A stretch of 64,000 nt of DNA from Marsupella aquatica. Taxonomy: Eukaryota; Plantae; Marchantiophyta. Position numbers and translations under genes: made by a program. Shown here one piece after another: positions 1 through 64,000 of this stretch. Within the stretch, counting starts at the first letter, position 1; every line of letters starts with the position of its first letter. The notes beneath the pieces are model-generated. The model saw nothing but the letters and a program-made list of their open reading frames with translations. It did no database searches and had not been told where the DNA came from. The DNA lies in the NCBI GenBank assembly GCA_973895155.1, contig OZ316894.1, positions 6,844,234 through 6,908,233 of the forward strand, written 5' to 3'.

Positions 1-2021
1 AAAGTTTTATATCAAGTACCACTTGGATGACTGCATCATCAGCAGCATTTAGACTGATTCACTTGGGACCTGTGGGACGCCCCAAGGAATTGATATAAGT
101 TCCGTCCGTGGGTGCAAGAAAGCATGACAGTCACGAACGAAAACCTACTTTGACGCATGCGTGTGAAGGTTTGAAATTTAAAAATTGGTCAAAACAGTGC
201 CGTGCTGGGAGGGAGGAGGCAGGAAGGCATCGTCAGACATCGTATGGCATTTCATCGCACTTGTTTGCCTCGAAAGTGCTGCGAGCTCTCGAAAGCAGCA
301 GCAGACCCGAGACTGCCATTGCACGCTTTGAAATTTCAAAAACACTCGTGTAATAGCGTACATGGATAATCCCCATCAACCCTCACGGAATTTGTTCCTG
401 GCGATGTCGTGTATTTGTATTACGGGTTTCCACCACAGAAGACGGAGATTCCTTCCGTCAGGATCTCCCAATTTGCTTTCCGGGCCCGCCGGCCGGATTT
501 GCTGGAGGTCGGGGATGGAATGATGGATGGTCACACAGTTCGGGAAGCGCACACTTCTCTGGAAGAGCGTCGAGCAGTAGAGTGGCCGATTGTAGAGCCC
601 AGCGGCTCATATGGTACAGAGGACAGAGAGCGAAAGAGTATTCAGCCATTTCAGCGCGCTGATCCGCACCCACTGTACACAATGACGCAGCCCAATCAAA
701 AATATGTTCCGACGCGCAACGGCCCGCTCCGCCAGGAGTTCCGGGCTTCCGGCACGTCCGTAGTGAACCGCCTGGTCCTCCAGATATGGATGGAAGAGAC
801 AAAACATGTCTGCCCACGTTCACTTTCGTGCGACAAACTCCCGGCAAGCTTCACTGACCTCCTGCCAGAGAAGTTTGCTGTATCCATGGCATGTCTCCAT
901 GCACGACAAGCATCATGCTTCTTCTTCCCAACTTATTCGGCGTTCCGTTTGAATATTTGCCTTTTTCGCAGGCTATAGCCTACTCCTATAATCCACCTCC
1001 TATCTCGCTCGGCTGGGTCTACCACTCTACCCAGAGGGAAGTGGGAACCGACAGACTCTCCGATTCTCTACTCTCTCGAAGCCTGGAACAATTCCGTTCC
1101 CAGCAATCGCACAGCTTAATTGTCAAAGGGCGACCGAAGATGACGGAGTTGGTGCCATAACAGTTGTGTGAGGAGCGAGCACCCACTCCCCAAACCCAAA
1201 GGATAATAAATGTCGTGGATTGGCACCAATCCACGACATTTTCTTTTGGTCTCTCTTATGTTGTTCGATGGTTTAGTCGTTCGTGTCGACGCTGTGCGTC
1301 TGATATCGAGACTACGAATACCCTGAATGTGGTGGCTGGACGATATGAGATTTAGTCGAGGGTGAACTCCCCTTCGCCGGCGATCAAATAATCGACCTTT
1401 TGTCTATCAAGATCAAAGCATGCTGGAGCGTTGGTGCTCTATGGTCGAACAGGATGAGGATACGTTTAAAGATAATATTGCACAAGGGAATCGGAAATGT
1501 GCAGTGGTAGTGATAGGATTTGGAAACAGTTCAATTGTCGAAGGCAAAGCTCTTGTCCCGTGATGCCATCAATATTGAGGAAAAATCTTTAATGCAATTC
1601 GGCGTCAACAGGTTTACTTTTTGCTCGCGATTGCTGCAGTCGTTTCCAGCTCATGGCAGTGCAGTGGTGCAGACGAGATTATACGGGTATTTAGAGAGGT
1701 TGGGAGACAGAAATCGACCTGAGTGAAGAGGTAGGCAATAGGCTTGGCCTCGAGATATGCAGGGATTGCTAGATGCAAAGCCATTGAAATGCGCGAAGGT
1801 TCTCCAGGCGCATTTGGTAAGCATGCCACAGATATCTCGAGATCCACTTCTGAATTCCAGGAAGAGAGAGGGAATTATATGGGATCAATGCTCAAGGTTG
1901 GACTTGAGATGGCGAACTAGCTGTTGACGGGTATTCGAGTCATATTTTTCGGAACGTTAGAAGTATACAGTTTTATCGTTCACAATCCGCTCCGGGTAGC
2001 TAGGTATATAGGTCGTTGGTG

Positions 2022-5000
2022 ATGTCGATAAAAGGAGGGGCAAGCTCTCCCTTGGCCGCCTTCGCAGTGAAAGCATCGCTTCTAGCAGAGCAGTTGGGAT
2101 CTGGGCTGTACGAAGGATGCGCAGAGGTGGAGGAGTTTCCATCCATGGTTGAGACAATTCGGTTGAAGCACAATGTCTGGACCATGGAGCTAAAGAAATA
2201 TGGGATGCCGGGAGAGAATCTGGTGGTGCCCCTCATTCAGGCGGCCACCAAGAAGCTTCGAGAAGAGGAAACTCGGCTGAGAAGGTTGCACAGCAGCTGC
2301 TACATGAAATGCTTCGCAGCTAGCAGGTTTATGTTTCCGAAGGACCTCGCAACCACCATTCAGGGTGTAATTGACGTGCTCGAGAACCTCCCCCTCCTCT
2401 TAAAAGAGAGTATAGAAAACTCGGAGGAAAACCTCTTTGCCACTTTGTCGATGACTAAAGACGTAGAGGGTTATTCGAAACTAATAAATGAGCCCGATTT
2501 CGAAGACGAACCTCCTATTCCGCCGCAACAACCTCGATCCAGTCCTCGAAGAAAACAATGCAGGCTACCGTTTACAGCGGACGAGCGTTGGGTTACGAAA
2601 AATTTGTCCATGTTGGAAGTGCAGCAAGCTTTAGAAAGGGAGAACGGGCCACATGTCGTCGTTCTCCACGGCGGTCCTGGAACGGGCAAATCTAGTCTCG
2701 CAAGACATCTTGCTCTGTATTATGCCGATGGTGGAGCTGGATCACAGTACTTTAACGACGGTGTTTTCTACCTTTCTTGTAGTGGGGGTGTGGATATCAA
2801 AGCCAAGCAACTGGAGCTTTTGTACATTTTAAACTACCCCCTTCACCTTTTGCTAACCAGCGGGGAATCGCAGCAACTCAATGGCGCAGGGATTCACAAG
2901 AAACTGGTTGAACACATGGACGACAAGGATGCCCTGGTAGTGCTCGACAATGTGGAGGACTGCGACCTGCTGCAGCACTTGCTGGTGCCCAGCCCACGCG
3001 TGAAGTATCTCGTCACCTCGGAGCTCAAATTACTCTGGGCAGATACTTTGAATCTTCGTGTTCCGCCACTCCAGACGAGCGATGCTCGGGAGATTCTGGT
3101 CCGGCATTTGGACCTTTATCCGCCGAGTGGATCCCCTGAGAGCGCTATTCCATCCTACCTCCAGGTACTTCAAAATCCTACCATTCACATCCTGCACATT
3201 CCAGAATTTCAAAATTCTTACTTACTTTCTGGAAACATACGGTTTCTCTCTGTTTCGTCGGAAAGAGCCTACCCTTATCTCCAGAGCTGAAACACTGCAT
3301 CGCCATATTTGAGTACGGCTTGAATTTATTCAAAAGCACCTGTTGTTATGACTGAAATGAGCTTGACTATGCAGTGGAATACGTGCGCTATATTTGTCTT
3401 CAGTAATGAATCTCTCTGCATCTCCTCGGAAATCTGGCACTGTCAAGTGTCTCACTACAGAGAAATTCTCGTATTCTACTCACCGTTTGTCGTGAGTGGT
3501 AACCGCACTTTGAATCGAGAGACTTGGCTTAATCGAGAATCAAACTGATGGAGTCGACCTACAAATGCATATATGCAAACTTCGATTGGCTACAAGCTTC
3601 GACCAAACTGATTTGCATGGGGTCGAAATTGTGTGGAATTCATGTGCAACGAACGTATTTCATATCATTCTTCGTCTATGCTTGCGCCTAATCGCGGAGA
3701 GTTGGACAGTTGAGAACAGGCGGCTCAAATTGGAAAAGCGATAGTGGAACTTTAGCGCACAGGAAAAACGGTGGTCGCATGTAGAGCTCATATGTCTGAT
3801 CTCTTCTATGATTGCCACAACATTGGATTCCGGGTGGGCAGAACCCAGCTCACCCACTTTTCTTCAGCAAATTCTGAACGTACAAGTTTCATAAATCTTA
3901 CTCCTTGAAGCTGACGGGTTGCGTTCCTGATGCAGAGAGTAGCAGATGCCCTGATCACAGCAACTGGGGCTAACCCGCTGGCATTGGTGAGCCTGTCTCT
4001 AGCAATTAGGAGACGGAGTGCTGGTTGTAGCACCGAGACAAGCGTGTGGCAGGACGTCGAGAAAAAATTCCGAAACATACTGCACGCGGAGAATGACAGC
4101 ACCAGCACCCTCGGAGAGCTGCACACAAGGAAGGTGGCTGTTGCCATTACCTTGGCTGTGGATCACTTACCATCAGAAGCGAAATCAATACTCTTTGCCG
4201 TAGCGGCATTTGACGACTTGCCAATTCCAGAGATAGTGGTACGCCTCCTCGTGAACTGCACGGATGGCCCAACCTCGAGCTTCGCAAAATGGAGAGATTA
4301 CTTGACAGAAACTGGACTCATCCAGCAACAATACCAGACTGTTCCATGGAGTAGCGCTCAGCAGAGCACACTCACCATCCACGGCATTCGAAAGCACTGT
4401 GTGAAAGCTACGAATAAGAAGGAGATCGGGCGAATGATCGACAATTTGCTAAGCCGTTTGCAACCTGGGAACCAAAGGTCGAAAGAGGAAATTCTTGACT
4501 CAGACACAGCTCTGATGGCTGCGCTTTTCGTTGTGTATGGCGAAGCGGTAGTGGCAAAAAGGGCAGCAGCCACGCTGGGGGTGTCTGACTTCAGTCACAT
4601 GGGGAGTTTAATCCTTACTTGGTTGGCACCTCTTGTCTCGATGCTGGAAGTCGCCGATCATCAAGAGGAGTGGCAGCAACAGTTTCACATGACCCACATT
4701 CTGGCAAGACAGGTGAGTGCTCATGTGCAGGAACTCATCAGCTCCGTTTCGTTTTTTAGTGTTTGAATTGATCTCTCCCTTAGGTGTTAGGACCCTTAAC
4801 GCGGAAATGAACTTGATGTAACATTCGATCCATTCAGTATCTGGTTCGGAATCAATTGGGACATGGAGGAGTTTGTCTGGACTACGGTGACCACCCTGGG
4901 CAATCCCCAGTCTTTGGACGAAGCGAGTGAAGATAAAAAATTCATCATTTTCTCGAATTGAAGCACCATGACGACCATCACGATCCCTTAGGTTCTTACA

Positions 5001-8000
5001 TTGATACGAATCTATATGCTGGATGGGAGGACAATTGATTCGTTCCCGTTTTACGAATGCAGGTGATCTTGGAGTTCATTTGCCATGGAAATCCAGAGGA
5101 TGGCATCACGGGATTGTTGGCTCTGCCCGAAGCTGCACTCACCGTTTGTTGGGCTCTGGCCGTGCATGCCCTCGACAAGCCCCTCATTCTCGTAAGCGAC
5201 GGTATCATGCAGGAACTGCTCACTTTGTTGGGCAGAAACATAGACCCTCCAACCCAAAAGAACGCAGCTTGGGCTCTAGCAAACATCGCCGTGTCCGACG
5301 AATTCAAACCCTACAATCTAGCACGGTTCCCAGGTAACATATAGGCTTCCATTTGCGTCACTGCCATGTTTTCATCAACATATTCCTCAATTTGAAGGAC
5401 ACAGATTGTTTCGTCTAGATTGGAGAGGACAAGAACGGATTCAAAGTGGCCGAATCCCTTTCTTTGATTCAGTTGTTTTAAAGATTGCTGAGACGGGCAC
5501 CAATGAATCGTAATGGTCCCATAGTCGCAAACATGGTGAAAAATAATTGATGATAGAGAAATACTTGACGAAAAAATTATTGTTAAATGGAAAAAGTAAG
5601 TTGTTTCAGGAATAATATTGGATGGAAAACTTCAGTTCTCATGGAAAAATTGTTAACCTTTGACCGTTTGACGAACGTAATGAATCGGAAGTGCAGGCTT
5701 CCTCGAGGGATTCGTGCGGCTACTGGGCCATGCCAACGACGCATACAATGACATTCAGAGCATTGCAGCATGGACATTGATGGTGGTGGCTGAGGCGGAG
5801 GACAATCGAGTGGAGCTAGCAGCATTTCCCGGGGCACTACAGGGGCTTGTAAGATTGCTGAGTAAGGCTGGAACTGCTGAGGCCGTGAAATCGGACACTC
5901 TGAGCAATGCGGCCTGGGCATTGGCCAACATTACTGTAGCTAGGGAGAACAGGACTACTGTTGCAGCTCTTCCGGGCGCCTTGCAGGTATTAATGAATCC
6001 GATTCACTTCAAGTTCGGTTTTGGTCCAGAGGAACTTTTAAACATCGAATTCTTAGGTTTCAAAAATTTAGTGAAGTCTCAATATGGGATACGATTTGAG
6101 TGATCGCACTCTCTGGACATGACACAGGCTTTGCTGAGAGATAAACGTTGTATCCTGACTAACAGTTTGGTTCGAAACAGTCTTTTGTTTCGAACCGATG
6201 GATTAGGCTTGAGAAGACCTCCTTATGTTCCGTGTTGTTACAATTCCTTACGTTAATTTTGCAAATGAGTATCCGGCTTGGACTTATTCTATGCTCCCTG
6301 AATCACCTAACGGAGTGTGACGACCACATCACGATTGCAACTTTTTTGAAAATGACGAACCTTGCTTCACGAGGGCTAGCTTCTAAGAATTAAGGGGTAC
6401 ATGCAGGGTCTGGTGAGGCTGTTGGGGAAGGACATGAGCCCGTGCACACAGGGCAAAGCAGCATGGGCACTAGCCAACATGGCCGAGGCAGAGGATAACA
6501 AACTCAGAATTGCGCCATTTCCAGGTGCTTTGGAAGGCCTCGTGAGGCTTCTCGGTGTAGAGGAACTGAACCACAACCTGCTTTCCACACATCAGCATCG
6601 CAACGAGCGTTTGGCATCCGCAATGGCCTTGGGAAATTTAAATGCAGCTTGGGCTCTAGCCAGCCTCTCAGATTGCAAGGAGCTTCAGGTAAAAACAAAG
6701 ATTCGTGGTTTTTCAGGGCATGCGCACTCTTAATCACTTCCAGATCGTTCTTCAGAGTCGCACAGCTATCACGCGGCAATTGGAGAACTTGAACACCGAA
6801 TTTTTACCAATTTTCATAAACCATATCTCAGTTGATAATATTAGGATTTTCAATTTATTAAATTTTTGTGTCATGCAGATAATCATAGCCAAACACCCAG
6901 GAGCACTTAAAGGGTTAGTGCGACTGTTGAGTAAGGATGTGAACTCACAAACGAGATGCTCTGCAGCGTGGGCTCTAGTGCACCTAGCTGAAGCTGTGGA
7001 GAATAAGGTTGCCATAGTTTCAATTCCAGGAGCTGTGGAGGGTCTGGTGAGTCTTTTAGATCTGAATGATTCTATGCAAAACCATCGAGATATACAGCAA
7101 CATGCTACATGGACTTGGCGAAATTTGAGTGCAGCATGGGCCCTAGGCAGCCTCGCTGAGATTGAGGTGAACAAAGCCATCGTTGCAGCATGTCCTGGTA
7201 CGTGGAAGCCTCCGTCATTCTCATTTTGTTCTATCTGCTGACGAATCTCATACGTCCTGCAAGATAGGAAAGTGGATTACTGGAGCCTGGTATCCAATGC
7301 TAGCCACCCCTGAATTTCCCACAACGATTGTCTGCCGGAAGGAACTAATTGGATTTGTTTTCCAGGTGCGTTGAAGGGGCTCGTAGGATTACTGAAGAAT
7401 GTCAACCTGAACATTCAGAGTCGTGCAGTATGGGCTTTGGCCAACATATCAGCAGCTGAAATCCATCAAGAAACTATAGCAATGTTCCCTGGAGCTTTGC
7501 AGGGCTTGATAGCTTTACTGAGCAAGGACGTTCACCCACACACCCAGGGCAATGTAGCGCGGGCGTTGGCACATATTGTGGAGGCCGGGAAAAACAGGGC
7601 TATTGTGGCGAAGTTTCCAGGGGCATTAGAGGGGCTGGTGTGGCTGCTTGGGAAGGATGTGAGCTCGTATCACACCCAAAACAACGCAGCCCGGGCTTTG
7701 GCAACCATGGCAAGTCTGGAAGAGAACCAGGAGGGAATTGCTAGCTGCCCCGGAGCTCTGGAAGGGCTGGTGAGGCTGTTGGGTATTGATGACGACCCTG
7801 CGGTACAGATTAATGCTGCATGGGCCCTCGCTAACTTGGCAGAGGCGAACGCCAACAAGATTAAGATCTCCTCCGTCCCCGGAGCCGTGGAGAGACTTCT
7901 CGCTCTGCTGGAGGAGGAAGTGGATGCCAGTGTGCAAGCAGTGGCAGCCAGGACGTTGACTCAAATTGCGGCACAAACAAGCAACCGGCTGATTTTGAGT

Positions 8001-8866
8001 TCAGGAGAGGCTTACAGGAGTCGTGCTGTTGTCAACATCGAGATGGAGAACTACCCACAGGCCCTCGCAGATCTTAACAGAGCCAACAACTTACAGCCAG
8101 ATAACCCTTACACTTTCAGGTAAGCAGGAGACACTCCGATGGCAATTTTTCTTTTCCGTGCTGTATTCCGAATAAATTTGCGTAGCTGCTGGAACAAATT
8201 AGGCAGCGGAAAGTAACAGTATTCTAGTTTGGCTGCACACAAGTTATTGGATTCTTTCATTTCGTATGAAACAATTCTTCTTGTTTATTGCTTGATCTCT
8301 GGTACTCCTAACTGGCTTTCCGGTCGTCCAATAGAGTCTTGTTACGTCCTTTTTTACAATGCTCAGGTGATAAGCTTCGCAAGTCTCGCTTAATGACTGG
8401 ATTGTTTGAGATGAATTTAAGGTGATTCGTTTGGTCCCATGACCCATAGAATGTTCAAAGGGTTTTTGGCGAGTAACGACACTCTCTATGGACATACAGT
8501 TGGAGGAGATTCGTGAAAGTTATGTTAAAAGATTACGATGGAGCTCTATCCGATGCCAACAGAGCCATCCTGCTGCAGGAGCACAAGCCATTCCACTGGC
8601 AGGAGCGAGGGGTGTTGAAACGTGTGATGGGGAACCTGGAAGGAGCTCTAGTGGACTTGGATAGAGCCTTGGAGATCAACCCAGACGACTACGAATCTCT
8701 GAAGCACCGAGCACTTGTGAAGTTTCTAATGCACGACAGGGCAGGGGCCTGTTTGGATGCAGAACAGGCAATGTCCACGAAGCCTGCCCACCTGGAGGAT
8801 CCTGGCTATGGTGCAAGTTTTCTGGGAGGCCTTGGAGTGGAGTTTCTCGTCTACAAACTCAAGTGA
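2022..8866 (+). CDS. NLR-like STAND protein: N-terminal helical domain + NB-ARC + ~12 ARM repeats + 4 TPR repeats (~1400 aa, 8 coding exons)
   Basis: Exons 2022-3164, 3936-4712, 5063-5333, 5697-5986, 6407-6688, 6879-7197, 7366-8119, 8500-8866. All introns are GT-AG and phase-compatible; total 4203 nt with no internal stop. NB-ARC motifs: Walker A GGPGTGKS, RNBS-A FNDGVFYLS, Walker B LVVLDNVED, YLVTSE, GxP GANPLAL, MHD-equivalent LTIHG. ARM consensus PGALxGLVxLL...AAWALANxA. TPRs such as ALADLNRANNLQPDN and ALVDLDRALEINPDD. Confidence 0.9.
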
Positions 8867-10025: not shown

Positions 10026-11750
10026 AGTAACTCTCGTCTAGAATAACTACCGTTCGGCTGTTGGTTATAGTACAAGTATTAGGATACATAAAATGGATGT
10101 AGATGCACTCCCCATGAACTTGAAGCCATTGATATGTCCCAAAATATGAGTGACTATAAATTTCTACACTGACAAATATTGACTCATGAAACTCTGCTTG
10201 AGGTAGTGGGCCTGCAGGGCGATGTTGTGGACTCGAAGTTGTCTCGTTCTGGTTCAATAACACTACCACTGATTAAGAGCGAAGCAGATCTTGAAGCCCT
10301 TCTGGCAGTTTCAGCCCTATCTGAAATACTCAGCAGTACTAGTTCCACTAAGTGATAATGCTCAACTCACCCTCTATCCATGTCTAAACTAGAGTCAATT
10401 CACCCGATTTGGCTACATGCCCGTACACCTCTATTGTGCGGTAGTGAATCTAAACGAAGGACTCGTCACCGTAAAAATATCTTCCCAACTAGTCAGAAAA
10501 GTGTTAGAGCAGAGAGGAAAACTATTTTGGGGAGTCGGAAGTTGGGTTGGTGGTGGTCGTGGACAAGGCTGGATGGGCAGAATGTTTTCTTGGGCGTGAT
10601 TGTGAGCGCGCATGCATTTGGCGCCATGAATCGATGGCAGATGTAGCTGGATGGAGGAGACAGACGGGGAACGTGAGTCTAATCGAGCGTGAGATCAGAA
10701 GAAGGTGAATCGGCTATGGAAGTACTGTGACATTGGTTCGGACCAGTTTGTTGAAGCAAACGAGCACTGATTGTCAGGTCGAATGACTGAGTTTGTATGC
10801 TCTGTTACTGTCAGCCACTCCGTTGCCACCTACTGTAATTGAACTAACCCAGCTCCTTTAGGCTGGTTGATGGTTGAACGATTTCGTTCCGGACATGAGA
10901 GCAGAGTGCGGGTCGGAGTGAAGGCTTTCATTTACGACCCGATTCGATTCGAAGGAACCCTCTTTCCACCTCAGCTGGCGAAGAAGATTGAATTGCGGCT
11001 TGACGAACATAGCTAGTTGGTTAGTCTTGGTCCACCATCGACAGGTAGTTCTTGATCACTTTTGCTTTCTTCCTCTGGGATTTAGGGGATCGTAGGTGTA
11101 GCACAATTCGATTGACCGCTCCGGCGTTTCTTTCTGGCCAGGGTTAGCTAGAATTTCATTTGGATGTCTATTAGACAGTCTAGAGTATTCGGTAAAGCGG
11201 TACTAGCAGTATTGCCAGCCAACATTGATCTTCATAGGTAATTGAATCACAATCTGTTCCCGGACTACAGAATCGAGGCTGCCTACGATGTTATTCAATG
11301 CTGACAACGTTGTGATTGCTTCTTTTTGTTACCAGGGTTTGGGATATTTCCTTGCTTCGGAAACGTGACGATCAGCAACCAGAATAGCCTCACGGTATTC
11401 TACACTATACGCAGGCCTAGACCACAGAAACTGTACAATTCAGAAGCTCGTTTACTTCCAAATTTGTCCCCCAACTCTTGCACGCTTTGGCGAGGAGGAA
11501 CAATCATGAAGGTCTGATTGAGATTACGAAACTTTCAGTACGGGTAGAAGGTCAAGTTAGATCAGCTCAGCTAGACCTTACGTAAGCATAACAACGTACC
11601 AGTTGTGGGGGCTAGGATTAGATAGATAACCCCACTTATAGCTAGTCTATAGACACAATCATTCTGCACTTACCCAGTCGTTGCTTGCCTCTAGTGTGCG
11701 TTTGAACTAAAAGAACCCGTGCTCTGCCGATCAGTCCTTCGTCAAGAATC

Positions 11751-12689
11751 ATGGGAATTGTAAGTTGTACGGCTCCTAAGGCTAGCGAAGGATATCCAAC
11801 TAAGTCCCGAAACGTTGGCGCTAATGCAAAGATCAGGTTGCGAATCCGGGGAGACAAATTGCTGATATTGCTGGTGATATCCTGCTGTACATTACAATGC
11901 GGAGTGACTGGAGTCGCTGTGCAAGCTCTACCTTCCGCACAGGCACCGTCAGAGAACGCATTGGAGGCACCGGTTGGACTTGTGGAACCAATGGCCCGAC
12001 CAATGGTGGGCGAAGCTCCGCTCCCGTCACCTCTTCTTGCGCCACCGCAAGGACAGGCCGCCCAGTTCCAACAAGTTATCTCCTCTCTCCGTTCGAACAA
12101 TTATACCATCGGTGGTCAGTACATCTCGGACTACCTCTTTCTCCTCCCTCTGGACAGTACTGTTTTCGTGCCCACGAACGCAGCCTTCGATGCATTAAAT
12201 CGGAACCTAGCTCTCGGGCCTCTTTTGGCGTATCACGCCATCTTGCAACAGTTTAACTACGAGTTACTCCTGCTGTTTCCAGCTGGCACCGGATTTCCAT
12301 CCTTGATCGGCAACAAGAACTCAATTGTGATCACCAGCGTAGCGCCAGACGATTTCAGAGTGGATGATGTCCGTATTGTTCAGGGAAACATCTGCAGGTC
12401 GAGCACTGCGGTCTTGCAGATTTCTTGTCATGGAGTAGATGGTATACTGAACATGACATTATGGGGTCAGACAGGTGCCTCGCATTTGCCACCAGTTTCT
12501 TCGCCACCATCAGAGGCTCCTATATCGGAGCTTACACTTCCCCCTACAGTAGAGAGTCCTTCGGCACCCGCGCCTGCGCCTAAGAGGCTTCACCACCAGC
12601 TGGTGGTGCATCCCGAGCTGAAAGTCGGTGTGCATTGTTCTCGGTGGTCCTTCTGTACGTGCTTGCCGCTGCTCTCACAGTCTAGTTAG
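11751..12689 (+). CDS. Fasciclin-like arabinogalactan protein (single FAS1 domain); C-terminal GPI signal frameshifted
   Basis: Hydrophobic signal-like segment LLILLVISCCTLQCGVTGVAVQA; AP/SP-rich regions on both sides of the FAS1 domain; FAS1 motifs H1 TVFVPTNAAF, LLAYHAI and H2 ISCHGVDGIL. Intronless; the exact start codon is uncertain. Confidence 0.85.
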   Translation: MGIVSCTAPKASEGYPTKSRNVGANAKIRLRIRGDKLLILLVISCCTLQCGVTGVAVQALPSAQAPSENALEAPVGLVEPMARPMVGEAPLPSPLLAPPQGQAAQFQQVISSLRSNNYTIGGQYISDYLFLLPLDSTVFVPTNAAFDALNRNLALGPLLAYHAILQQFNYELLLLFPAGTGFPSLIGNKNSIVITSVAPDDFRVDDVRIVQGNICRSSTAVLQISCHGVDGILNMTLWGQTGASHLPPVSSPPSEAPISELTLPPTVESPSAPAPAPKRLHHQLVVHPELKVGVHCSRWSFCTCLPLLSQSS

Positions 12690-15445: not shown

Positions 15446-16302
15446 GAGCGACAACAATGGGCAAGAGTGCAGGTGTTGAATTTGACGCTGGGATTTCAGC
15501 TTGCCCGTCCTCAAGACTCTTAAGTAGGCTGACCTCATGTTTATGCACGCCGTTAAGTTTGTTGGAAAGTAGCCTCAGGTTTTGTTTCCAGATGACCTAC
15601 TGATTAAAAACTCGCGATTGACTGTCCTTTTTTGCGGAGGCTGATTGCTTCTCAGCGGATAACTTGTTGCGTGGTTGTTTTGCCAGGTTTTAGTCAAGGT
15701 TTCCAACGAGTTCCAATTTTCGTTGCGAGCCTGTCTCTCGAGAATCTCTTGCGAGTTCACTGAGCTGGTGGCACTTCGAGGCTAGTTTCAGGTTTGTACG
15801 ATTATAGCTCGACACACATTTGTACTCTCCCATTTTCAACATTTGTATTTGATTGATTGTTACGTCATAAATAGAATTCCTTACTTCACCGTAGGACTGG
15901 CAGTTCGACATTGTCCTAGGTCTGGTTTCGGGACTGCACCGTCCACAGCAGCATTCTTCACAAGAGTGAATCATAAGAGTTAATTGGACCGAACCGAATT
16001 TGATGGAATTGAGTTGAACTGAGTGTAGTTTTGGCCGGGTCGATCCACTGATAGCGCATTCCCTAATTGAAGAGGAACAAGGGACAGATATGAAAAGTTA
16101 ATTAAGACCTGTAGCGTCGGCCCGAAATGTAGATCGGCGTGAACACAGAGATAAAACAAAGATTTTTCTAGCTTCGTAAGTGTCCTAGAAACTATGTACA
16201 AGCTTAGTTGTGCTCTGTCGAGCTTTCGCGCGATTGCCCAAATCGTACTAAGAATGCACACACAGTGACATACAACAGGGCGATCTCGTAGAATCTTTTG
16301 GG

Positions 16303-17185
16303 ATGGAGGATCCCGCTAATGAGGTGGAAGGCGTGGTGCGGGCGTTGGTTGACAAGCCGACGCTGAGAGGGCAGGAGAAGACGCTAAGGAAATATTTCAT
16401 GCCTGATGCCGAGTTCTATCACTCAGTCGTAAATTTAAGTAGTGGCCTGGAGGCCATGATTGTGTGCTACCAGGTTGCCGAGATTCTGGTGAATTACAGT
16501 GGGGTGGAGTTCTATAATATCGTGTATGACGAAGTGGCCAACTGCGTTGCTGTCCGAGTGACAGTATACATCCGACCTTGGTTGCTCTTGTTCCGAACCG
16601 TTCCGTTGAGATACCTACTCTTTCTTGAGCTGACGGACGTTGTCGAGGTGCGTGAAAATCAGTCTTACTTCTTTCTTTCATCCTCCCATTTTCCGCCATA
16701 CGGAGATGATAGGCATCATCCAGTCCTTTGTAAAATAACGAATAGTCCTGGAAGAAGCGATGCTGAGTTTTGAGAGCATTTTAATCAAAAGCACGAAATT
16801 CGCTTGCAACCGTTGAGAACATATATCCATTTTTTGGAACTGCAATCTAATTTGAAAAACAATTCCTGTGAACTAGATGAGTCGTGCACAACCCTGATGA
16901 CTTGAGCCTTTGGGTCGTTCGATTGTAATGTGGCAGAATGGCAAGACATTGAAAAAGATACGAGTGCAGCGCGATTACAGCATCCGCTCTCCTCTAGTAG
17001 AATTGATCCCTCTTCTCGGAAAAATCTACGACTCGGAGACTCTCCGCTTCTGGGCGGGTGACATCTCGGGCTTCATTCTCCTGCTCTTGAAATCTCTGAT
17101 AATCTGGTTGCTACGCCATTTGCCTGAAAAGTTCGGCCATAGCAGTTGGAGATACTCAGCGCACGACAGCGCTGTGGAGATGTGA
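16303..17185 (+). CDS. NTF2-like fold protein with C-terminal hydrophobic helix, copy A (197 aa)
   Basis: Exons 16303-16647 and 16937-17185 (GT-AG, phase 0). N-terminus MEDPANEVEGVVRALV...Q...LRKYFMPDAEFYH matches the pattern I recall for fungal 'SigF-like NTF2' proteins. Late beta-strand KKIRVQRDY; hydrophobic tail FILLLLKSLIIWLL. Confidence 0.8.
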
Positions 17186-20440: not shown

Positions 20441-21307
20441 TCGAGCGACAACATGGGCAAGAGTTGATTTTTATGGCAGGTGTTGACGCGACTTTGACGC
20501 TGGGATTTCAGCTCGCCCGTCCTCAAGACTCTTTAGGAGGCTGACCTCATGTTCATGCACGCCGTTAAGCTTGTTGGAAAGTAGCCTCAGGTTTTGTTTC
20601 CAGATGACCTACTGATTAAAAGCTCGTGAGTCGACTGTCCTTTTTTGCGGAGGCTTATTGCTTCTCAGCATATAACTTGCTGCGTGGTTGTTTTGCCAGG
20701 TTTAAAACAAGGTCTCCAACGAGTTCCAACTTTCGTTACGAGCCTGTCTCTCGATCGAGAATCTCTTGCGAGTTCACTGAGCTGGAAGCTAGTTTCAGGT
20801 TTGTACGATTCTTGACGCACATTTGTACTGTCCCTTTTCAACATTTGTATTTGATTGATTGTTAAGTCATTGATAGAATTCCTTACTTCGCCGTATGACT
20901 GGCAATTCGACATTGTGCTAGGTTTGGTTTCAGGACTGCACCGTTCCACAGCGGCATTCTTCTCAAGAGTGAGTCATAAGAGTAAAATTGGACCGAACCG
21001 AATTTGATCGAATTGAATTGAATTGAAGTGAGTGTAGTTTTGAGGCCTCAGAGATAGCCCATCCCCCAATTGAAGAGGAACAATGAAGGGACAGAAATGA
21101 AAATTTAATTAAGACAGCGTTGGCCCGAAAATGTAGATGGGCGTGAGTACAGATATAAAAGCATAGAGTTTTATGAGTTTGTAAGTGTCCTAGAAACTAT
21201 GCACAAGCTTAGGAGTGGTCTGTCGAGATTTCGCACTATTGTCCAAATAGTAGTAAGAATGCTTGCACGGTGACATACAGCAGGACGATCTCTTATAATC
21301 TTCTGGG

Positions 21308-22206
21308 ATGGAGGACCCCGCTAATGAGGTGGAAGGCGTGGTGCGGGCATTGATTGACAAGCCGACGCTGAGACGCCAGGAGAAGGCCCTAAGGAAATAT
21401 TTCGTACCCGATGTCGAGTTCTATCACCCATATATAAATTCCAATAGGGGCCTGGAGGTCTTGATTGTGATCTACCAGTTTGCCGAGATCATGTTCAATT
21501 ACAGTGGGGTGGACTTCGACAATATCGTGTATGACGAAGTGGCCAATTGCGTTGCTGTCCGAATGACTGTATACATCCGACCTTGGCCGCTCATTTTCCG
21601 AACCGTTCCTTTGAGATACCTCTCCTTCCTTGAGCTGACGGACGTTGTTGAGGTGCGTGAAAATCAGTCTTACTTCTTTCTTTCATGCAATCCATTGGCT
21701 TCCCATTTTCCGCCATACCGAGATGATAGGCATCATCAAGTCTGCTTTGTAAATGAATAATCCTGGAAACAGCGATGCTGAGTTTGGAGAGCATTTTGAT
21801 CAAAGCAACCAATTCGTTTGTAATCGTTGAGAATAGAAATCCAATTTTGAGAGCTGCAATGTAACTTGAAAACCAGTTCCTGTGCACGAGATGAGTCGTG
21901 CACAACCGTGATGGTCAAATGACCGGAGCCCTGACTCGTTCATTTGTAATGTGGCAGAATGGCAAAATATTGAAAAAGATACGAGTCCAGCGCGACTACA
22001 ACATCCGCTCTCCTCTAGTGCAGGCAATCCCTATTATCGGCGAAATCTATGACTCGGAGACTCTCCGCTTCTGGGCGGGTGACATCTGGGGCTTCGTCTT
22101 CCTGCTCTTGAAATCTTCAATAATCTGGATTTTGCGCCACTTGCCTGAAAAGTTCGGCCATGGCAGTTGGAGATACTCAGCGCACGACATGGCTGTGGAG
22201 ATGTGA
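21308..22206 (+). CDS. NTF2-like fold protein with C-terminal hydrophobic helix, copy B (197 aa)
   Basis: Exons 21308-21652 and 21958-22206, the same lengths as copy A. Contains YFVPDVEFYHP and KKIRVQRDY. Confidence 0.8.
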
Positions 22207-30989: not shown

Positions 30990-33150
30990 TATCTTGCAAC
31001 ATTATAACATTTGGTACCTGCTCATCTTCAGCTATTGCTTGGGCATCTGAAACTTCTTTGCAAGATCGTTTGTTGTGGCCAACTTTTCCGCACGTACACT
31101 TTACATTACTAACCCCGCTTCCTTTTCTTAGGTAGGATCTCAACCATTGGGAGGCCACTCGCAGAGTTTGCACCTGGAAACGGAATGCCTCTCTCATTGT
31201 CATCATCCATTGGATATCTGAGACACAGCCTTCTTGTTGGATCAAGATGGAAGTCCTCCCCATTCCCTAAAGCCCTGGAACAAGTTTCCCCATGAATTCT
31301 TACCATTCGATGTCGCCCATTCACTACAGCAGGCTCTGGAGCATGACAACTTAAGCTCAATGGAAGGTGAGTGGAAACAAAGCTAGGTAATACACCATCA
31401 TAAAGTAAAAGCAAAGACTGTGTCCGCCAGCATTTATGAAAATGCCTAGCCGGATTCTTTCCTGTTTCATCATCCCATGCCAACATATGTTGGCATGGCC
31501 AAACCATCTCCTGCAGCTCCATGCAGGTGCACTTTGGTTTTGGTGACAAAGTGACAAGATACTCCTCACTCCCTGTTGTAGTCTGAATTTTGGCAGTGGA
31601 TTGACCATCACTGAATACCTGTAGCATGACAGTATGAAATATGAAGCGTGAGACAATCCATCCTCCACATGTGGTCAAAATGTTCGTTACAAAAGGAAAA
31701 GAAAGAGCCAATTTGCACCTGGAATTGTTGGAAGTTCTGCAAGTTGGTATTGTATCGTAGTTGTGCTGGTTTTGACAGTGGTTCTTGTCTGCATGCAACC
31801 TCTATTCTCCTGTCTTTAAACTTTTGTTGAATGCACACCCAAAGAGCCACCAACAACTTTCCAGGTGCTAGCAGACAAAATGTTAATAATCCAGAATTTG
31901 CTTGCTTGGCTGGATTACTTGTGACCTTACCCATGCGAGGGAGTGGGAATGCATGCCTGGCATAACATTTCACATCCAGACTGCAGATGTAATCTGCTGC
32001 ATCAACTCCCTTGCCGGCTATCAATGAACCAGATAGTCGATCTAGCACAGACTCATATCTGAATTGAAAGAGACAAAATACATGAGTGACAATGTTTACA
32101 GAGACAGAATACATCAAGCACAATGTCAAAATACATAGAATACATCAATTACAATGTCTGAATAGGCAAATTGCTTTCATATTGGTCCTAGTGAGCGTAT
32201 TTACTTACTGGTGCACATCATTGGCATATATAGACACATCCGTAGAAGAATTCACTTGTTGTTCTACCATGCCTGGTCTTCACGTTTGCCCTTAAATGAT
32301 TTGCGCATTGTGCATGGATCTTTCCTACTGTCCAAAAATAATAAATTAGATTTTGTACTCCAGTTAGCACATCATCATAACTCTCAAATTTGACAGAATT
32401 AAGCAATCTAAGTGTGGAAGGGTGTTACCTGGCCAAATCTGACTTACAGCAACAGTGAGACCCTTTTGACGATCTGACATGATGACAATGTCTTGACTAC
32501 CAATGCCATATACAACTCTGTCCATTAATTCTAGAAACCAAAGCCAGTTCTCTGTGTTTTCAACTGGTGCTACTCCATAGCAAAGTATGACACCGTTTGA
32601 GTTCCCATCCAGGCATGTAGCTAAAACAGTTGAGTTGGATATTTTCTATTCTTGGTGTGACAAGCATCTAAACTAACCATCGGCTGAGTATAGTTAAGTG
32701 CTTTCCTGGTGGCAGATGGACATATGAATGCTCTACAAAAAATGGTGGAGTCCTCTATAGTGCACCAATGTGCAACACAGCCAGGGTCTGTCTCTCGAAT
32801 CCTGTCAATCAATGCTGGGATCATCTGAAAAGATGATTTCTGTGAGCCAGCGGTCCAATGCCCTACAAGATCTTTGCCCCGCCACATTTGCTGGTAGTTA
32901 CTTCCTCGTTTGTAGTCACCTTGGAAACCAGACAACAATTCCTTCACAGGCATTTTCAGATTTCTGATGATTCTTGGAGCCAATGTTACCCCCAACCATG
33001 CAGACTTGTGAGTAGGAGCTCTCCACTTGTGAATGTGAGCAGCACAAGTATGTGTTAGTTCACATACAGTGATAATATGACCCCCACCATTCACTCTACT
33101 GCAATGTACTCTGAAAGGACATTCCTCCTCTGAGTAAAGCAAGTCCTCTG
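30990..33150 (-). mobile_element. Mutator-like (MULE/MuDRA-type) transposase, inactivated
   Basis: MuDR zinc motif CPFRVHCS...HTC; D1 SLDACH; LATCLDGN...VAPVENTENW; D2 IMSDRQKGL; CANH; SWIM CTC.ELQ...WPCQH; zinc knuckle CTCGKVGHNKRSC. There is a 1-nt frameshift at ~32623, and the third catalytic residue reads K in TSNPAK (31905-31907). Confidence 0.9.
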
Positions 33151-34239
33151 GTCCTGGTTGAGAGGGCTAAGTAGATCTGGACAACTGTCCAGAAGCTCCA
33201 GTTGCAGATGGCTTCCTAGCTTTCTGTTGACCAGGTTTACGTGGGTGTTGCGAACCAGGTAACCAAACGCTAGTGTGTTGGACTATGGACTTTGGTCTGT
33301 TGTGCACAACTCTTCCTTGTGTAGACAAAACAGTATTTTTGTGCAAAGTTTGTTGTACAAATATAGGTGCATTTTGGTGCACGGATTGTTGTGTAGACAA
33401 TGACACATTTGTCTGCATGGTGTTTGCTTGAATTGCTGAAAGCGGTGCATGAGGTTGCTGACGAGCAAGAGTGATCTGATTAATGCCATTATGAAATTGA
33501 CGATCTTCAATCTGTAAAACCCCATGATTGTACACACAAAGAATTTGAGCAAGTGATTGTAGGATGTCCCAAAATGTAAAAAGGTGGTGGCAGTGGCAGC
33601 GGCAGCACACACCTCTGCTTGAGTGCGAAATCTATTCTCTTGTTGCGTAGTTTGCTGCAATGTGTTCCTCTAGACCATAACCACTAGGGGCCCACCAGAG
33701 TTATGTCCATAGAAAGTATTGGGGAAAGAACCATGATTGGGATGTCATGTACATGTCAAAAAAACAGCTTGCATGATGATTTTTTTTCATCATGTCTATT
33801 CATATTCAAATAATAGGCATTTAGGCTCGTAGGATAATCTTCATATTAAATTGCACTGCAAAGCTACTTTGAGGACCTACGTCTCTAGAGACTGAAGCAG
33901 ATAGACTTAGGGGGCAATTATCAAATTAGGGCAGGGGTGAAAATGGGGGTTGGGGTGGAGCAGTGTTGGGAGTAGTGCGCCACATTAGATAATAGGGTCA
34001 CATGTGAAGAGAGTCAATGGATTAGGGACGCCATCAGTACGTGAAGAGGTAGCTGTTGTCATTGCACGTCAAGAGCTTTGGTTAGCTTTTGGGGTTAGCT
34101 GCTGTCATTGAGGGTTGATATGTCTTTTATCCTCACCTCTATTCATGTTCAAAGGATGGGTAGTCGTGCTAATACTAGATAAAGTAACCCAACTGCTCTT
34201 CTATATTAGTGAGTGTTGTGCCTTCTATAGAACTAACTA

Positions 34240-55539: not shown

Positions 55540-58500
55540 ACCAACTACCACTTGATCTAGTGAAATCACTGAAAAGATGCTTGATGGGACCCTTGCCAAG
55601 CGGAGACCAGGCTGCAGGACTTCGAGACTGAAAAGGTTTGTTGGATGGCTTTCATTCTGCAATTTAGGTGGATTGGGGAGGGAGACAAATGCTCTAAACT
55701 TTTCTTCAGGAGCTTCAAGGGACTGGCCATGAACAAGGAAATCACCCAACTGTTTACACCGGAGGAGCAAATTGTCAGCCGATGGGAGGAACTGGCTTCC
55801 ACAGCTACCAATTTCTTCCAAGACCTTCTTGGCCGATCATATGGCTTTCACTGGGAAGAAGTGGCTCAGGTTCTGGAGCTGCAAACAAAACGAATCACCA
55901 CAGAGGACCAGGATCAGATGAATGCACCTATCACATTGGAGGAACTTGGGCAGGCTGCAACGGCACTTGCCAGCAACAAGTGCCCTGGACCTGATGGAAT
56001 CCCCGTTGAATTCTTTGTGGCCCACTGGCACATTGTGGGTCCCTCTCTCCATAGGGCTTTGTTGCACGGATTGGCTGATGGGTAGTTCTCCCCCAAAATC
56101 ACCAGGGGCCTAATCATCCTTCTACCTAAGCCGGACTATTGGAGGTCTCTAACTAATAAGCGCCCCATCACACTCTTGAATGTGGCTCATAAGATTGGTG
56201 CCAAGGTTCTTCAAATGCGCCTCATACCGGTTCTGCAGCAGTTCATTTTGCCCCAACAATTTGCTTTTATTCCAGGAAGGAACATTCATCATTCCCTTAT
56301 GCTTCTCAATGAGACGCTACATCATACTGCAACCTCCAGGCTTGAATATATTCTGCTCAAGTTGCATGTCATCAAGGCTTTTGACAAGCTTGAATGGCCC
56401 TTTTTGATGGCTTTTATGGAGAAGGCAGGATTCAATGGGCTCATAATGCAATTCTTGAGGGCAACCCAAGCATAGGCCTCCTCTGCTGTATTAATTAATG
56501 GGAGAATGGCCTCCCCCTTCAATCTAGCTCGTTTGGTGAGGCAGGGATGTCCACTATCCCCTCTGCTTTTCCTCATTGCCATTGACTCCCTTAGCAACAT
56601 TGTTTCCAGGGAGGTCAATCAAGGATCCATTCAAGGGATAGACATGCATCACTTGGCAGTTCATAATATCCACTACTTCTTTGCAGATGATATTGCCCTA
56701 CTCATTCATGCCACAATGCAATTTATCGACTCTTGTAAGATGGTTCTTGATCTCTTTGGCATGGCTTCAGGCCTATATTTGTGCCTGGGAGAAAACAAAG
56801 GCTGCCTTTATGTCCCCACGTAGGATTCCACTCGAATTCAGACATCTCCCCTGGAGGTGGGAAGATGAACAGAATGCCAGTAAGTTTCTCAGGGTCCCTC
56901 TTGCTCAACACATTTCCGAACATCAAATGGTCCAAACCTTATCGGAAAAACTGGAATCAAGACTTGACCAGGTCCGCACGACCTCAGGATCACTGATTGC
57001 CCGGGTCACGGTAGCAAACCATCTTGTCCTCAGCACCCTCTAGTTCACTCTTACCATATGGGCTGGCCAGCAATCTACCCTGGACAGCTTACAAAAGAAT
57101 ATCACTGGCTTTGTGTTGGCGGGAGGCCAGATCCAGAGTAGACCTTGCGACCATCACCAAACCAAGGGGACATGGAGGACTTGGGCTGATCTCGTTGTCG
57201 GCACAATTCAAGGCACTGGCGGGGAATTTCATTCATTATCTGGGCATTGGCAGAGGGGGACTACCCTCTTTGTTGCATCCTTCAATTCAAAATCAGGAAG
57301 CTTTCCCAGCTAAAGTGGGGGGCGGATGACTTCGCTTGGGCCTTCACACAATGTCATACTCTACCACAAAATAGCTCGCAGGTCTGGATGAATGTATGCA
57401 CTGCATGGAATGTTTTGAAAAAATAGTTGAGACCTACCTCACCGGGACACTTGGAAGGGATCACCTCTTTGGAATCCACATCTCAATCATTTCAACCCCA
57501 CGTCGGCTAGATGTCATACCAATCCTCAACGGAAAATCAAGAGGGGGGGTTTTCACTACATGAAAGATGTCTTGGATATTGCTGGCAACTTTATTAGATG
57601 GGAAGATGGGCCCTCCAAGTGGTTGCTTGGGATTGTGCTAGGGCATACAAGAAGATGATTGACAATCTCAGGGGGTATGGCACGCGTGACAGTAAACAGA
57701 AAAATTTTCCTGTTATCAGCAAAAAATTACTGTTACCAGGAAAAATAATCATGTCAAAATATTTTCTAAAAAGTCAGATTTCCAAAAAAAATTAAATTAC
57801 AATATTTTTTGGCTAGCTTTGGGTGCTAGCAAAAAACATAAAAAATTTCAAAAAAAAACAATTTCAAAAAACAATTTCAAAAAAAATTCAAAAAAAATTC
57901 AAAAAAAATTACCACTCATTTTCCTGTTACTGTTTGTTGTTATTGTTTGCTGTTTCCTGTCGTTTGTAAATACCCCATCTCAGGAGTGTCCCTGGATTAC
58001 ATTGTGACCCTAGGATGTTGTTCCCTATTTTCATGGAAGCATCTGTACATTTGGGAATACTCTACTGAGAAAAGACTCATCACTACACAGTTACAATTTT
58101 CCCAAGATACTTCCTCTCCACGGTGGACCTTCTTGGTGATCAATGGCTGTCTGTACAAGAACATCTTTGCCCCACCAATTGACACACTTCTACATAGGGT
58201 TCTAACCCACCACTTATGGATTGGCAGACCCATTCATTTGGCTACCTCGCACCTTTGCTCCAATATGATGGAAGGATGGCCTTCCCTTCTTGGACACATC
58301 CACAGCACATTTACGGGAGATCCAATGGCGCTCTTCAGAATCTCTCCACAAGGCAATACACAAATGGGTGACCAGGTTGAACTGGAATCCTAACCCCCAA
58401 ATGCTCTGGACCTCGGGGGTTTCACTTCCACAAAAATGGCATATCACGTGCGACGATGGATAGGGTCATTTTATTGATTTCTAAGGGAAGATTTTAGAAT

Positions 58501-62529: not shown

Positions 62530-64000
62530 TACTTTTTACAGAAAAGGGCCAAATAGAGTACAAAAGAATAAACAAGAGAGGTCCGAAGTGGACAAAACCA
62601 AACGCAAAAGAAGTGAGCAAAAGGAAACCCCTAAAAACCAAGAAAGAGTAACTAAAACTACCGCAAATGGACCAAGGTCCTCATCATTCCTAGCAAATGT
62701 GGCAGAAAGCTAATGGTCTACATCAAGTGTCAAAACTAAATCGGCAAGTGGGATTGGAATGTCCTCTAGGGGGGCTAGCCGCTGTGGAGTCACACTAGCA
62801 CCCACTGTCAGAGATTGACGATAGATGGCCCGAGCTTGAGCACGCTGTAAGGTGACTGAAATGCGTTGGCAAAAGTGCGTGGTCAAAACAGATAGCGGGG
62901 GTCCAGTGGGACCCATCCGGCCGTGAACATCCCGAGCAGCTTGGCGAAGAAGCCCATCAAAGTGATGATGGAGACGCCCAAATATCTCAAGAGCAAGGGG
63001 CAGGAAGCTATCAGATGGAGCTCGTGCAACATATTTGGCCACCTTCGTTGTTGCTGCTCGTGATGCTGCTGCCCCTGCCGTTGTTGCCGCTGTCCCAATG
63101 ATGTCTTGGCGCAATGGGTTTGCCACCACTACATCTGCCAAAGTACGGTGACCCTCACGGACCATGGTAAGATCCACCCATAACCGCTGTGATGGAGGAC
63201 CAGGTAACTCGAGCACCACCTCCCGCCGTGCGCAGACCAAAGAGCCAGAAAGAACCTGAGCAGTGGCATCTCTCACAGTATCGTGAACAAAAATGGTTTC
63301 GCCGCCCAAACTGCACCGAAGAAGATGGACACCTGTGGCATCACAAGGCTTCCCACAAGTGCAAGTAGGAGGTAAACCAGCAAGAAGTGGGTGGGGCAAG
63401 CCCATACGAAGACGCATGGCTGTCGCAAACTCCACTGAAGACATCCGTAGGTGAGGAATGACTGGATTGGCCTGAAGCCAGCCTCTTGCGCCCTTCCCTC
63501 CGGAAGAAAGAATCCGAGCTCGGTCCATGTCAGGTGCCTCGTTGAGGATGTTGGAGAGGGTGAAAGCGTGCATACGCCCAGCAAGGTCTGCCTGAAGATG
63601 GACGGGGTCCAAGGATAAAAACTCCTGAAATGAAGGTAACGCAGCTCGAACAGGATCTGGTAATGATGACCGCGCCACGCGCAAATGAACCTGAAATGGG
63701 AGGGAACCCTCCTCTACCTCCATGAGAAACGAAAGTAAAAAAGGTCGATCCTCAGTAAGGAAACGATCTGCCAACAATGAGAAGGCGGCCGCCCATGCAC
63801 CCAAAAAGGCCAAAGGTGCAAGACGCTCAGTGGAAGTAAGCCCAAAACCACCGTGAGAAATAGGAAGACTGAGCTGTCGATGAAGCCACAGAGATGAGAA
63901 CAAAGTATCTGGCCCTAAAAGCGGGCCTAAAAGAGAAGCCAAAGTCTCATGAATGGAGACATCAAACGCTCGGAGGTGTAGATACAAATCCTCCGTAGGG
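62530..64000 (-). mobile_element. 3' part of a non-LTR retrotransposon with restriction-like endonuclease (CRE-clade-like); ORF open for >=425 aa, stop at 62710
   Basis: RT thumb QLSLPISHGGFGL; GARGWL..NP; F.TAMRLRMGLP; CxC..CD..G.H...C; HDTVRD; RLE core WVDL...LADVVV.NP and A..KVAKY; FLPLALEIFG; QRISVTLQRAQARAI. T-rich 3' UTR to ~62530. Truncated by the window edge. Confidence 0.85.

What the first reader, a model, noticed from the sequence alone, without database searches (positions are those of the whole stretch)
2022..8866. LRR-less NLR-like receptor with a double sensor: helical N-domain + NB-ARC + ARM array + TPR array
Seen: an intact 8-exon ORF joins a complete NB-ARC to ~12 ARM repeats and then 4 TPRs. 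Known: canonical plant NLRs end in LRRs. NB-ARC-ARM proteins (rice RLS1 type) and TIR-NB-ARC-TPR (TNP) proteins are small separate classes, while fungal and bacterial STAND receptors use TPR, ANK or WD sensors. I do not know a characterised plant STAND protein carrying both ARM and TPR arrays. Inference: a lineage-specific immune or cell-death receptor class in non-seed plants.
Basis: partly seen in the sequence, partly recalled or inferred. Interest (0 to 1): 0.85.

Follow-up and report, generated by a model that had tools for sequence, protein, structure and literature searches.

The report
Liverwort LRR-free NB-ARC-ARM-TPR receptor (NHAT)
This is an intact liverwort gene for an immune-receptor-like switch protein with armadillo and TPR repeats where plant receptors usually have leucine-rich repeats; its Marchantia counterpart was already named in print in 2025 (type 'NHAT'), and it likely senses a conserved peptide and would trigger defence or cell death.

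Summary
In detail: 8 exons, 7 GT-AG introns, 1400 aa. The protein has a four-helix N-domain, a full NB-ARC, 12 ARM repeats plus one degenerate repeat, 4 TPRs and no LRR. It is the orthologue of Calypogeia fissa (91%), Marchantia (67%) and Riccia (63%) proteins.

The M. polymorpha orthologue is Mapoly0095s0062/MpNBS-LRR15. Nat Genet 2025 uses it as its 'NHAT' R-gene example and overexpressed it in N. benthamiana (legend only). A 2025 table lists six Marchantia (NBARC)(ARM)(TPR) proteins in a CC-NB-ARM cluster with rice RLS1.

Added here:
- It belongs to an expanded liverwort clade apart from CC-NLRs.
- The clade mostly lacks the sensor-1 Arg (10 of 78 keep it) and the MHD motif (5 of 52).
- The importin-alpha-like ARM groove is nearly frozen among orthologues but varies among paralogues.
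- TPR-bearing members share a C-terminal tail.
- The N-domain is replaced by a hydrolase-like domain in at least three places.

Splicing has no RNA test here. Verdict: new member of a named, mechanistically unstudied class.

The parts
2022..3164 (+). Exon 1 (aa 1-381): ATG, N-terminal helical domain, disordered linker, NBD and start of HD1
2049..2453 (+). Predicted four-helix (CC-type) N-domain, aa 10-144. First helix has no acidic residue in aa 1-22; Cys pair at the end of helix 3
   Evidence: AF2 model of the C. fissa orthologue, pLDDT mostly 84-94 over the helices; family profile aligns through this domain to NRC4/NRC2
2670..2693 (+). P-loop GGPGTGKS (aa 217-224), intact
2934..2951 (+). Walker B (aa 305-310); second acidic position is Asn here, Asp in Marchantia and Riccia
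3015..3023 (+). Sensor-1/RNBS-B T-S-E (aa 332-334): Glu in place of the ATP gamma-phosphate Arg
3936..4712 (+). Exon 2 (aa 382-640): HD1 with GLPL equivalent GANPL, winged-helix domain, helical arm
4377..4385 (+). MHD-motif equivalent I-H-G (aa 529-531), the same in all 5 orthologous proteins
5063..5333 (+). Exon 3: degenerate ARM unit and ARM 1
5697..5986 (+). Exon 4: ARM repeats
6407..6688 (+). Exon 5: ARM repeats, one with a loop insertion
6879..7197 (+). Exon 6: ARM repeats
7366..8119 (+). Exon 7: five regular ARM repeats (to about 7988) and TPR1 (from about 8007)
8500..8866 (+). Exon 8: TPR2-4 (to about 8794), conserved family C-terminal tail, stop TGA 8864-8866

Best explanation
The locus encodes a 1400-aa CC-NB-ARC-ARM-TPR protein orthologous to the Marchantia gene named NHAT (Mapoly0095s0062), and it likely works as a STAND switch whose ARM groove would bind a conserved extended peptide, which would open the NB-ARC, oligomerise it and let the four-helix N-domain start defence or cell-death signalling. 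Shown: gene integrity, domain order, orthology, intact P-loop, purifying selection, and near-invariant Trp/Asn groove positions. Predicted: the closed NB-ARC fold and the four-helix N-domain. Inferred: autoinhibition by the ARM/TPR arm, ligand binding in the groove, oligomerisation, and an RPP1-like active state that does not need the sensor-1 Arg. Reported by others, legend only: overexpression of the Marchantia orthologue in a cell-death assay.
For: Orthology: the model, C. fissa, Marchantia and Riccia proteins form one clade, SH-aLRT 100, following the species split; identity 63-91% over the whole length. The orthologue's names are and its NHAT label. The AF2 model (682 aa, pLDDT 85.1) matches resting NRC2 best (Z 25.1, rmsd 3.4, 332 aligned), then ADP-bound Apaf-1 (Z 19.5) and the NRC1 NB-ARC (Z 19.0). 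The family profile aligns over CC+NBD to NRC4 (E 1e-15). GK[ST] is kept in 76 of 78 family rows. ARM helix-3 windows are 82-85% identical to Marchantia/Riccia against 57-62% for the rest of the array. The 12 Trp-position letters are identical in 5 of 5 proteins, with 5-6 full WxxxN motifs. WxxxN lines the peptide groove of karyopherin-alpha (PMC3885797, passages). The best solved ARM matches are designed armadillos, Vac8 and importin-alpha. Activated rice RLS1 (CC-NB-ARM) causes HR-like death (PMC10030324, abstract and passages).
Against: The first helix has no acidic residue in aa 1-22 and a low hydrophobic moment (0.25, against 0.37-0.69 in 10 of 11 paralogues shown), which argues against a ZAR1-like channel for this member. 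The MHD Asp and sensor-1 Arg are absent, so the usual ADP/ATP cycle may not apply. The groove lacks the acidic residue three before Trp in all 12 repeats, so it is not a classical NLS binder (role of that residue recalled). Repressing wild-type RLS1 gave no leaf phenotype. The NHAT cell-death picture and its supplement could not be seen.
Confidence: 0.6

Rival explanations
1. It is a conserved housekeeping STAND switch acting in stress, senescence or organelle turnover rather than pathogen sensing, as first described for rice RLS1.
For: One orthologue was found per species set, with uniform conservation across all folded domains and purifying selection. RLS1 was first tied to chloroplast degradation in leaf senescence, and its cell death is high-light dependent and largely SA/NPR1/RAR1 independent.
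Against: It sits inside an expanded clade with variable repeat number and groove residues and with N-domain swaps, a pattern typical of immune families. The published study treats it as an R gene.
Confidence: 0.2
2. It is the conserved helper or regulator of the clade: the divergent paralogues sense, and this protein relays or restrains their signal, binding a host partner through the frozen ARM groove.
For: End branches are short in the orthologue clade and long in many paralogues. The groove is invariant here but variable in paralogues. The first helix is atypical.
Against: No paralogue lies in the 64-kb window (tblastn hits only within the gene). There is no interaction evidence. Other lineages of the clade also keep orthologues across genera (P0013 with P0135).
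Confidence: 0.15
3. The NB-ARC part and the ARM/TPR part are separate genes joined by a wrong model.
For: No transcript of this organism could be laid on the locus. The homologues' own transcript support was not inspected.
Against: Independent annotations in four liverwort species give the same single protein. Junctions align in frame, splice sites are canonical, and checked indels avoid exons.
Confidence: 0.03

Closest known systems
NHAT-type R genes (PMC12513842, Nat Genet 2025; example M. polymorpha Mapoly0095s0062 = MpNBS-LRR15)
   Same: Orthologue: 67% identity over 1369 aligned positions, same domain order, same motif variants (TSE, IHG, GANPL), same tail.
   Different: Different liverwort class; Walker B DN against DD; first helix without acidic residues. 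The paper's definition and assay result were not visible; reading NHAT as NBS-HEAT-ARM-TPR is my inference.
CC-NB-ARM proteins / rice RLS1 (LOC_Os02g10900; PMC10030324, PMC12512272)
   Same: CC + NB-ARC + ARM with no LRR. A published NB-ARC tree puts Marchantia ARM-TPR proteins, among them Mp5g10840 (= P0135 of this clade), in one cluster with RLS1. The top Atlas hit is a 1051-aa streptophyte NB-ARC(+Arm 21%) cluster, score 0.95 (lead only).
   Different: RLS1 is 1040 aa with three annotated ARM motifs and a reported MHDV motif, and no TPR. I recognised no RLS1 orthologue among the hits, so kinship is distant at best and untested in my trees.
CC-NLRs (NRC2/NRC4, ZAR1)
   Same: CC+NB-ARC profile match and closed NB-ARC fold.
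   Different: No LRR, no sensor-1 Arg, no MHD Asp; separate clade in both trees.
TIR-NB-ARC-TPR (TNP)
   Same: NB-ARC with C-terminal TPRs and no LRR.
   Different: No TIR domain; an ARM array lies between NB-ARC and TPR. TNPs were not in my trees.
Importin-alpha / designed armadillo peptide binders
   Same: Regular ARM repeats with Trp and Asn on helix 3.
   Different: No acidic residue at the -3 position; fused to a STAND module.

Membership tests
NHAT (PMC12513842) | Groups with the named example Mapoly0095s0062 | tested here: met
NHAT (PMC12513842) | Domain structure as the paper defines it (presumed NBS + HEAT/ARM + TPR, no LRR) | tested here: inconclusive
   The Pfam architecture equals that of the example protein, but the defining supplement could not be read
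NHAT (PMC12513842) | Cell death on overexpression | not testable with these tools
   Only the legend for the Marchantia orthologue was seen
STAND / NB-ARC | NBD-HD1-WHD module with P-loop, Walker B and GxP | tested here: met
CC-NB-ARM (RLS1 type) | N-terminal coiled-coil / four-helix domain | tested here: met
   Predicted; exact CC subtype open (one search scores 0.80-0.81 for MCAfunc, MLKL_N and RPW8, leads only)
CC-NB-ARM (RLS1 type) | ARM repeats in place of LRR | tested here: met
CC-NB-ARM (RLS1 type) | NB-ARC groups with RLS1 | tested here: inconclusive
   RLS1 not recognised among hits; published cluster joins them, but that cluster also holds one CC-NB-LRR row
Canonical CC-NLR | C-terminal LRR | tested here: not met
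Canonical CC-NLR | Sensor-1 T-T/S-R arginine and MHD motif | tested here: not met
   TSE and IHG; motif roles from PMC8813719 passages
RPW8-type NLR | RPW8 CC domain | tested here: inconclusive
   No RPW8 Pfam hit for exon 1, and none among the 25 of 61 families shown for 24 family members; weak Atlas lead
TNP | N-terminal TIR domain | tested here: not met
UNC-45 (automatic UniRef label of the orthologues) | N-terminal TPR before the ARM/UCS region, no NTPase (architecture recalled) | tested here: not met
   TPRs are C-terminal and an NB-ARC is present

The most novel reading that the evidence does not exclude
Liverworts run a second, LRR-free receptor repertoire in which the armadillo groove is the variable recognition surface. 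This gene is its frozen member, reading a deeply conserved peptide through an importin-alpha-like Trp/Asn ladder, perhaps as bait for effectors that hijack ARM proteins. Its switch works without the MHD lock or the sensor-1 arginine, so it is held shut by the ARM-TPR arm and tail rather than by ADP contacts. The clade swaps its executioner between a four-helix bundle and a hydrolase-like domain.
Probability: 0.2. Interest if true: 0.7.

Novelty: new member of a known kind. Interest (0 to 1): 0.33.

Why it matters
The architecture is already named, so the gene itself is not a discovery. It still matters as a conserved, genetically accessible (Marchantia) representative of an LRR-free plant NLR-like clade for which my searches found no mechanistic study. 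The invariant groove, the missing MHD and sensor-1 residues and the conserved tail give specific residues to test how a plant STAND protein senses and stays off without LRRs.

Tried and rejected
- Own genome: none held, so copy number outside the window is unknown.
- RNA: no RNA holder listed; the 4 runs laid were contigs and showed no spliced joint.
- Homo-dimer prediction of NB-ARC aa 178-545: no answer, score 0.00, alignment not used, no evidence either way.
- Single-sequence fold of the N-domain: pLDDT 52, best Z 7.6 to unrelated helices, uninformative. The larger model's search covered only aa 179-559 well, so the CC subtype is not settled by structure.
- The three-sequence profile found nothing in PDB below E 0.03; the 24-sequence profile did.
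- Word-based searches found only 3 orthologues or 4 clade members; no RLS1 or TNP sequence was recognised for the trees.
- Trees are quick SH-aLRT trees without bootstrap; the one-clade test for hydrolase-type members did not finish. One search left out 31 of 84 rows (long branches, near-copies, redundant outgroup rows).
- Full-text search for five Mp gene ids found 0 papers.
- Earlier scan findings: none, by words or by sequence.
- Hsp90-type carboxylate clamp in the TPRs: clamp residues (recalled) not seen on inspection, though best PDB matches include co-chaperone TPRs.
- UNC-45 label rejected as automatic.

Full report
1. The observation. The eight exons join through seven GT-AG introns into 4203 nt, 1400 aa, with a single terminal stop. 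Pfam gives NB-ARC in exon 1, Arm in exons 3-7 (exon 5 just under cut-off), TPR in exon 8 and weakly at the end of exon 7. No LRR, TIR or RPW8 family is listed. An HMM of the ARM unit finds 12 units (aa 681-1235), with a degenerate 13th motif at aa 668; four TPR units and a short tail follow. No second copy lies in the window. No RNA holder was listed, so splicing is supported indirectly. Every junction aligns without gaps to the Marchantia and Riccia proteins. In DNA contigs of a related organism, 16 of 16 checked indel or skip places are non-coding. Listed coding changes are 13 synonymous to 4 non-synonymous (only 40 of 155 differences shown) and 11 to 5 (exons 5-8, complete), against about 991 synonymous and 3046 non-synonymous sites.

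2. What it is. The search for longer homologues returned three proteins with the same architecture, from Calypogeia fissa, Marchantia paleacea and Riccia fluitans. Cluster look-up added a second C. fissa copy and the M. polymorpha protein MARPO_0095s0062, named MpNBS-LRR15 despite having no LRR. Whole-length identity to the model is 91%, 67% and 63%, spread fairly evenly over folded domains, with only the linker (aa 136-185) low. The window is therefore likely from Calypogeia or a close relative. These proteins form one clade with SH-aLRT 100 that follows the species split.

3. It is already in print. PMC12513842 (Nat Genet 2025; I saw passages and the Extended Data Fig. 6 legend, not the figure or the main supplement) divides NBS proteins into 10 subclasses, three of them new. 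It lists 'NHAT: Marchantia polymorpha, Mapoly0095s0062.1' among five genes overexpressed in N. benthamiana for cell-death symptoms. That NHAT is one of the three new types, and what the letters stand for, are my inferences. PMC12512272 (section 8, passages, Table S3 rows 116-177) has a CC-NB-ARM cluster of 62 rows. It includes rice RLS1, ferns, lycophytes and angiosperms; 6 of 62 rows read (NBARC)(ARM)(TPR), and all six are Marchantia. One of them, Mp5g10840, is P0135 of this clade. Mp5g08960 is probably the orthologue, judged by its matching Pfam string, not by a seen identifier. RefPlantNLR (PMC8559963, passages) notes the rice NB-ARC-ARM protein and many ARM types in Selaginella. The Marchantia NLR preprint (10.1101/2022.10.19.512840, passages) does not mention ARM. 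I found no mechanistic study; closed journals and unseen supplements may hold one.

4. The family. A profile of the N-terminal half against 1.84 billion representatives gave 126 hits (80 at E<=1e-10). Of 20 looked up, 19 are named Calypogeia, Riccia or Marchantia proteins and 1 is unnamed; the remaining strong hits were not named, so mosses and hornworts are not excluded. In both quick trees the clade (45 of 84 rows, support 99; 38 of 53 rows, support 100) stands apart from five canonical NB-LRR rows and from bacterial-type STAND rows. RLS1 and TNP were not in the trees. Of 44 clade proteins scanned, 16 carry the TPR block (5 of them seeded the HMM) and 14 match a C-terminal tail motif; none of the 28 without TPR matches it, and some of those are fragments. 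ARM unit counts range from 0 to 18. Nine members have an alpha/beta-hydrolase-like N-domain: 6 by Pfam hits, mostly below cut-off, and all 9 alike by BLAST. They fall in three places that starred branches keep apart; the formal test did not finish.

5. Mechanism. The AF2 model of the C. fissa orthologue's first 682 aa (81-row alignment, pLDDT 85.1) shows four long N-terminal helices, a disordered linker, NBD-HD1-WHD and a helical arm. It matches resting NRC2 (Z 25.1), ADP-bound Apaf-1 (19.5) and NRC1 (19.0) (Foldseek TM 0.75 to the NRC1 NB-ARC). The P-loop is kept (76 of 78 rows), so nucleotide binding is likely. Sensor-1 has Arg in only 10 of 78 rows (Gln 57, Glu 9), and x-H-D survives in 5 of 52. 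A review (PMC8813719, passages) says that TNLs such as RPP1 with Glu or Gln there form ADP-bound resistosomes, and that MHD mutations autoactivate. I infer an RPP1-like active state and a resting state held by other contacts, most likely the ARM-TPR arm. The ARM helix-3 face is the most conserved part of the array (82-85% against 57-62%). It has an identical Trp/Arg string in 5 of 5 proteins and 5-6 WxxxN motifs, while paralogues vary widely at these positions. WxxxN binds peptide main chains in karyopherin-alpha, but no repeat has the acidic residue three before Trp. This points to a conserved extended-peptide ligand that is not a classical NLS (inference). The output step is the weakest: the first helix lacks acidic residues and is weakly amphipathic, so a ZAR1-type channel is doubtful. 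A Cys at the end of helix 3 in 43 of 53 family rows might be an acylation site (speculation). Activated RLS1 kills cells with a partner, RMC, which offers a partner-dependent alternative.

6. Verdict. The gene is real and intact, and it is the orthologue of a published NHAT gene (membership about 0.9). It works like a CC-NLR switch with probability about 0.6; housekeeping and helper roles are the main rivals. New member of a known but unstudied kind; interest 0.33.

Noticed in passing
window 11706-12689 (+): Neighbouring ORF with a fasciclin domain flanked by Pro/Ala/Ser-rich stretches, like a fasciclin-like arabinogalactan protein.
   Followed up: partly
window 16252-16773 and 21299-21760 (+): Two similar ORFs with NTF2_SigF-like domains, a tandem duplicate.
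   Followed up: partly
window 55585-57043 (+), 31109-33166 (-), 62710-64000 (-): Transposon relics: a broken LINE-type reverse transcriptase (RVT_1 hit). The others look like MULE and retroelement pieces on reading, with no Pfam hit.
   Followed up: partly
window 370-978 (+): 202-codon stop-free stretch about 1 kb upstream of the gene, no Pfam hit.
   Followed up: partly
window 6377-6406 (intron 4 acceptor): Both C. fissa models have 13 extra residues here; in the window an in-frame stop precedes the 9 open codons, so that extension is not open.
   Followed up: partly
proteins P0015, P0024, P0032, P0038, P0039, P0047, P0075, P0077, P0083: Clade members with a hydrolase-like N-domain in three tree positions. 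Six have Asp and one has Ser at the nucleophile position of the G-x-S-x-G-G-like motif (two unmatched). P0015 joins hydrolase, NB-ARC and ARM repeats.
   Followed up: partly
protein P0063 (M. paleacea): A long-branch member of the same NB-ARC clade carries LRRs, hinting at sensor-repeat exchange within the clade.
   Followed up: no
window 8795-8863 (+): C-terminal tail motif shared by TPR-bearing paralogues of low overall identity; possible cap or self-ligand for the TPRs.
   Followed up: partly
hits: Many fragment hits end or begin near profile position 380, the place of intron 1, which suggests a shared intron across the clade.
   Followed up: no
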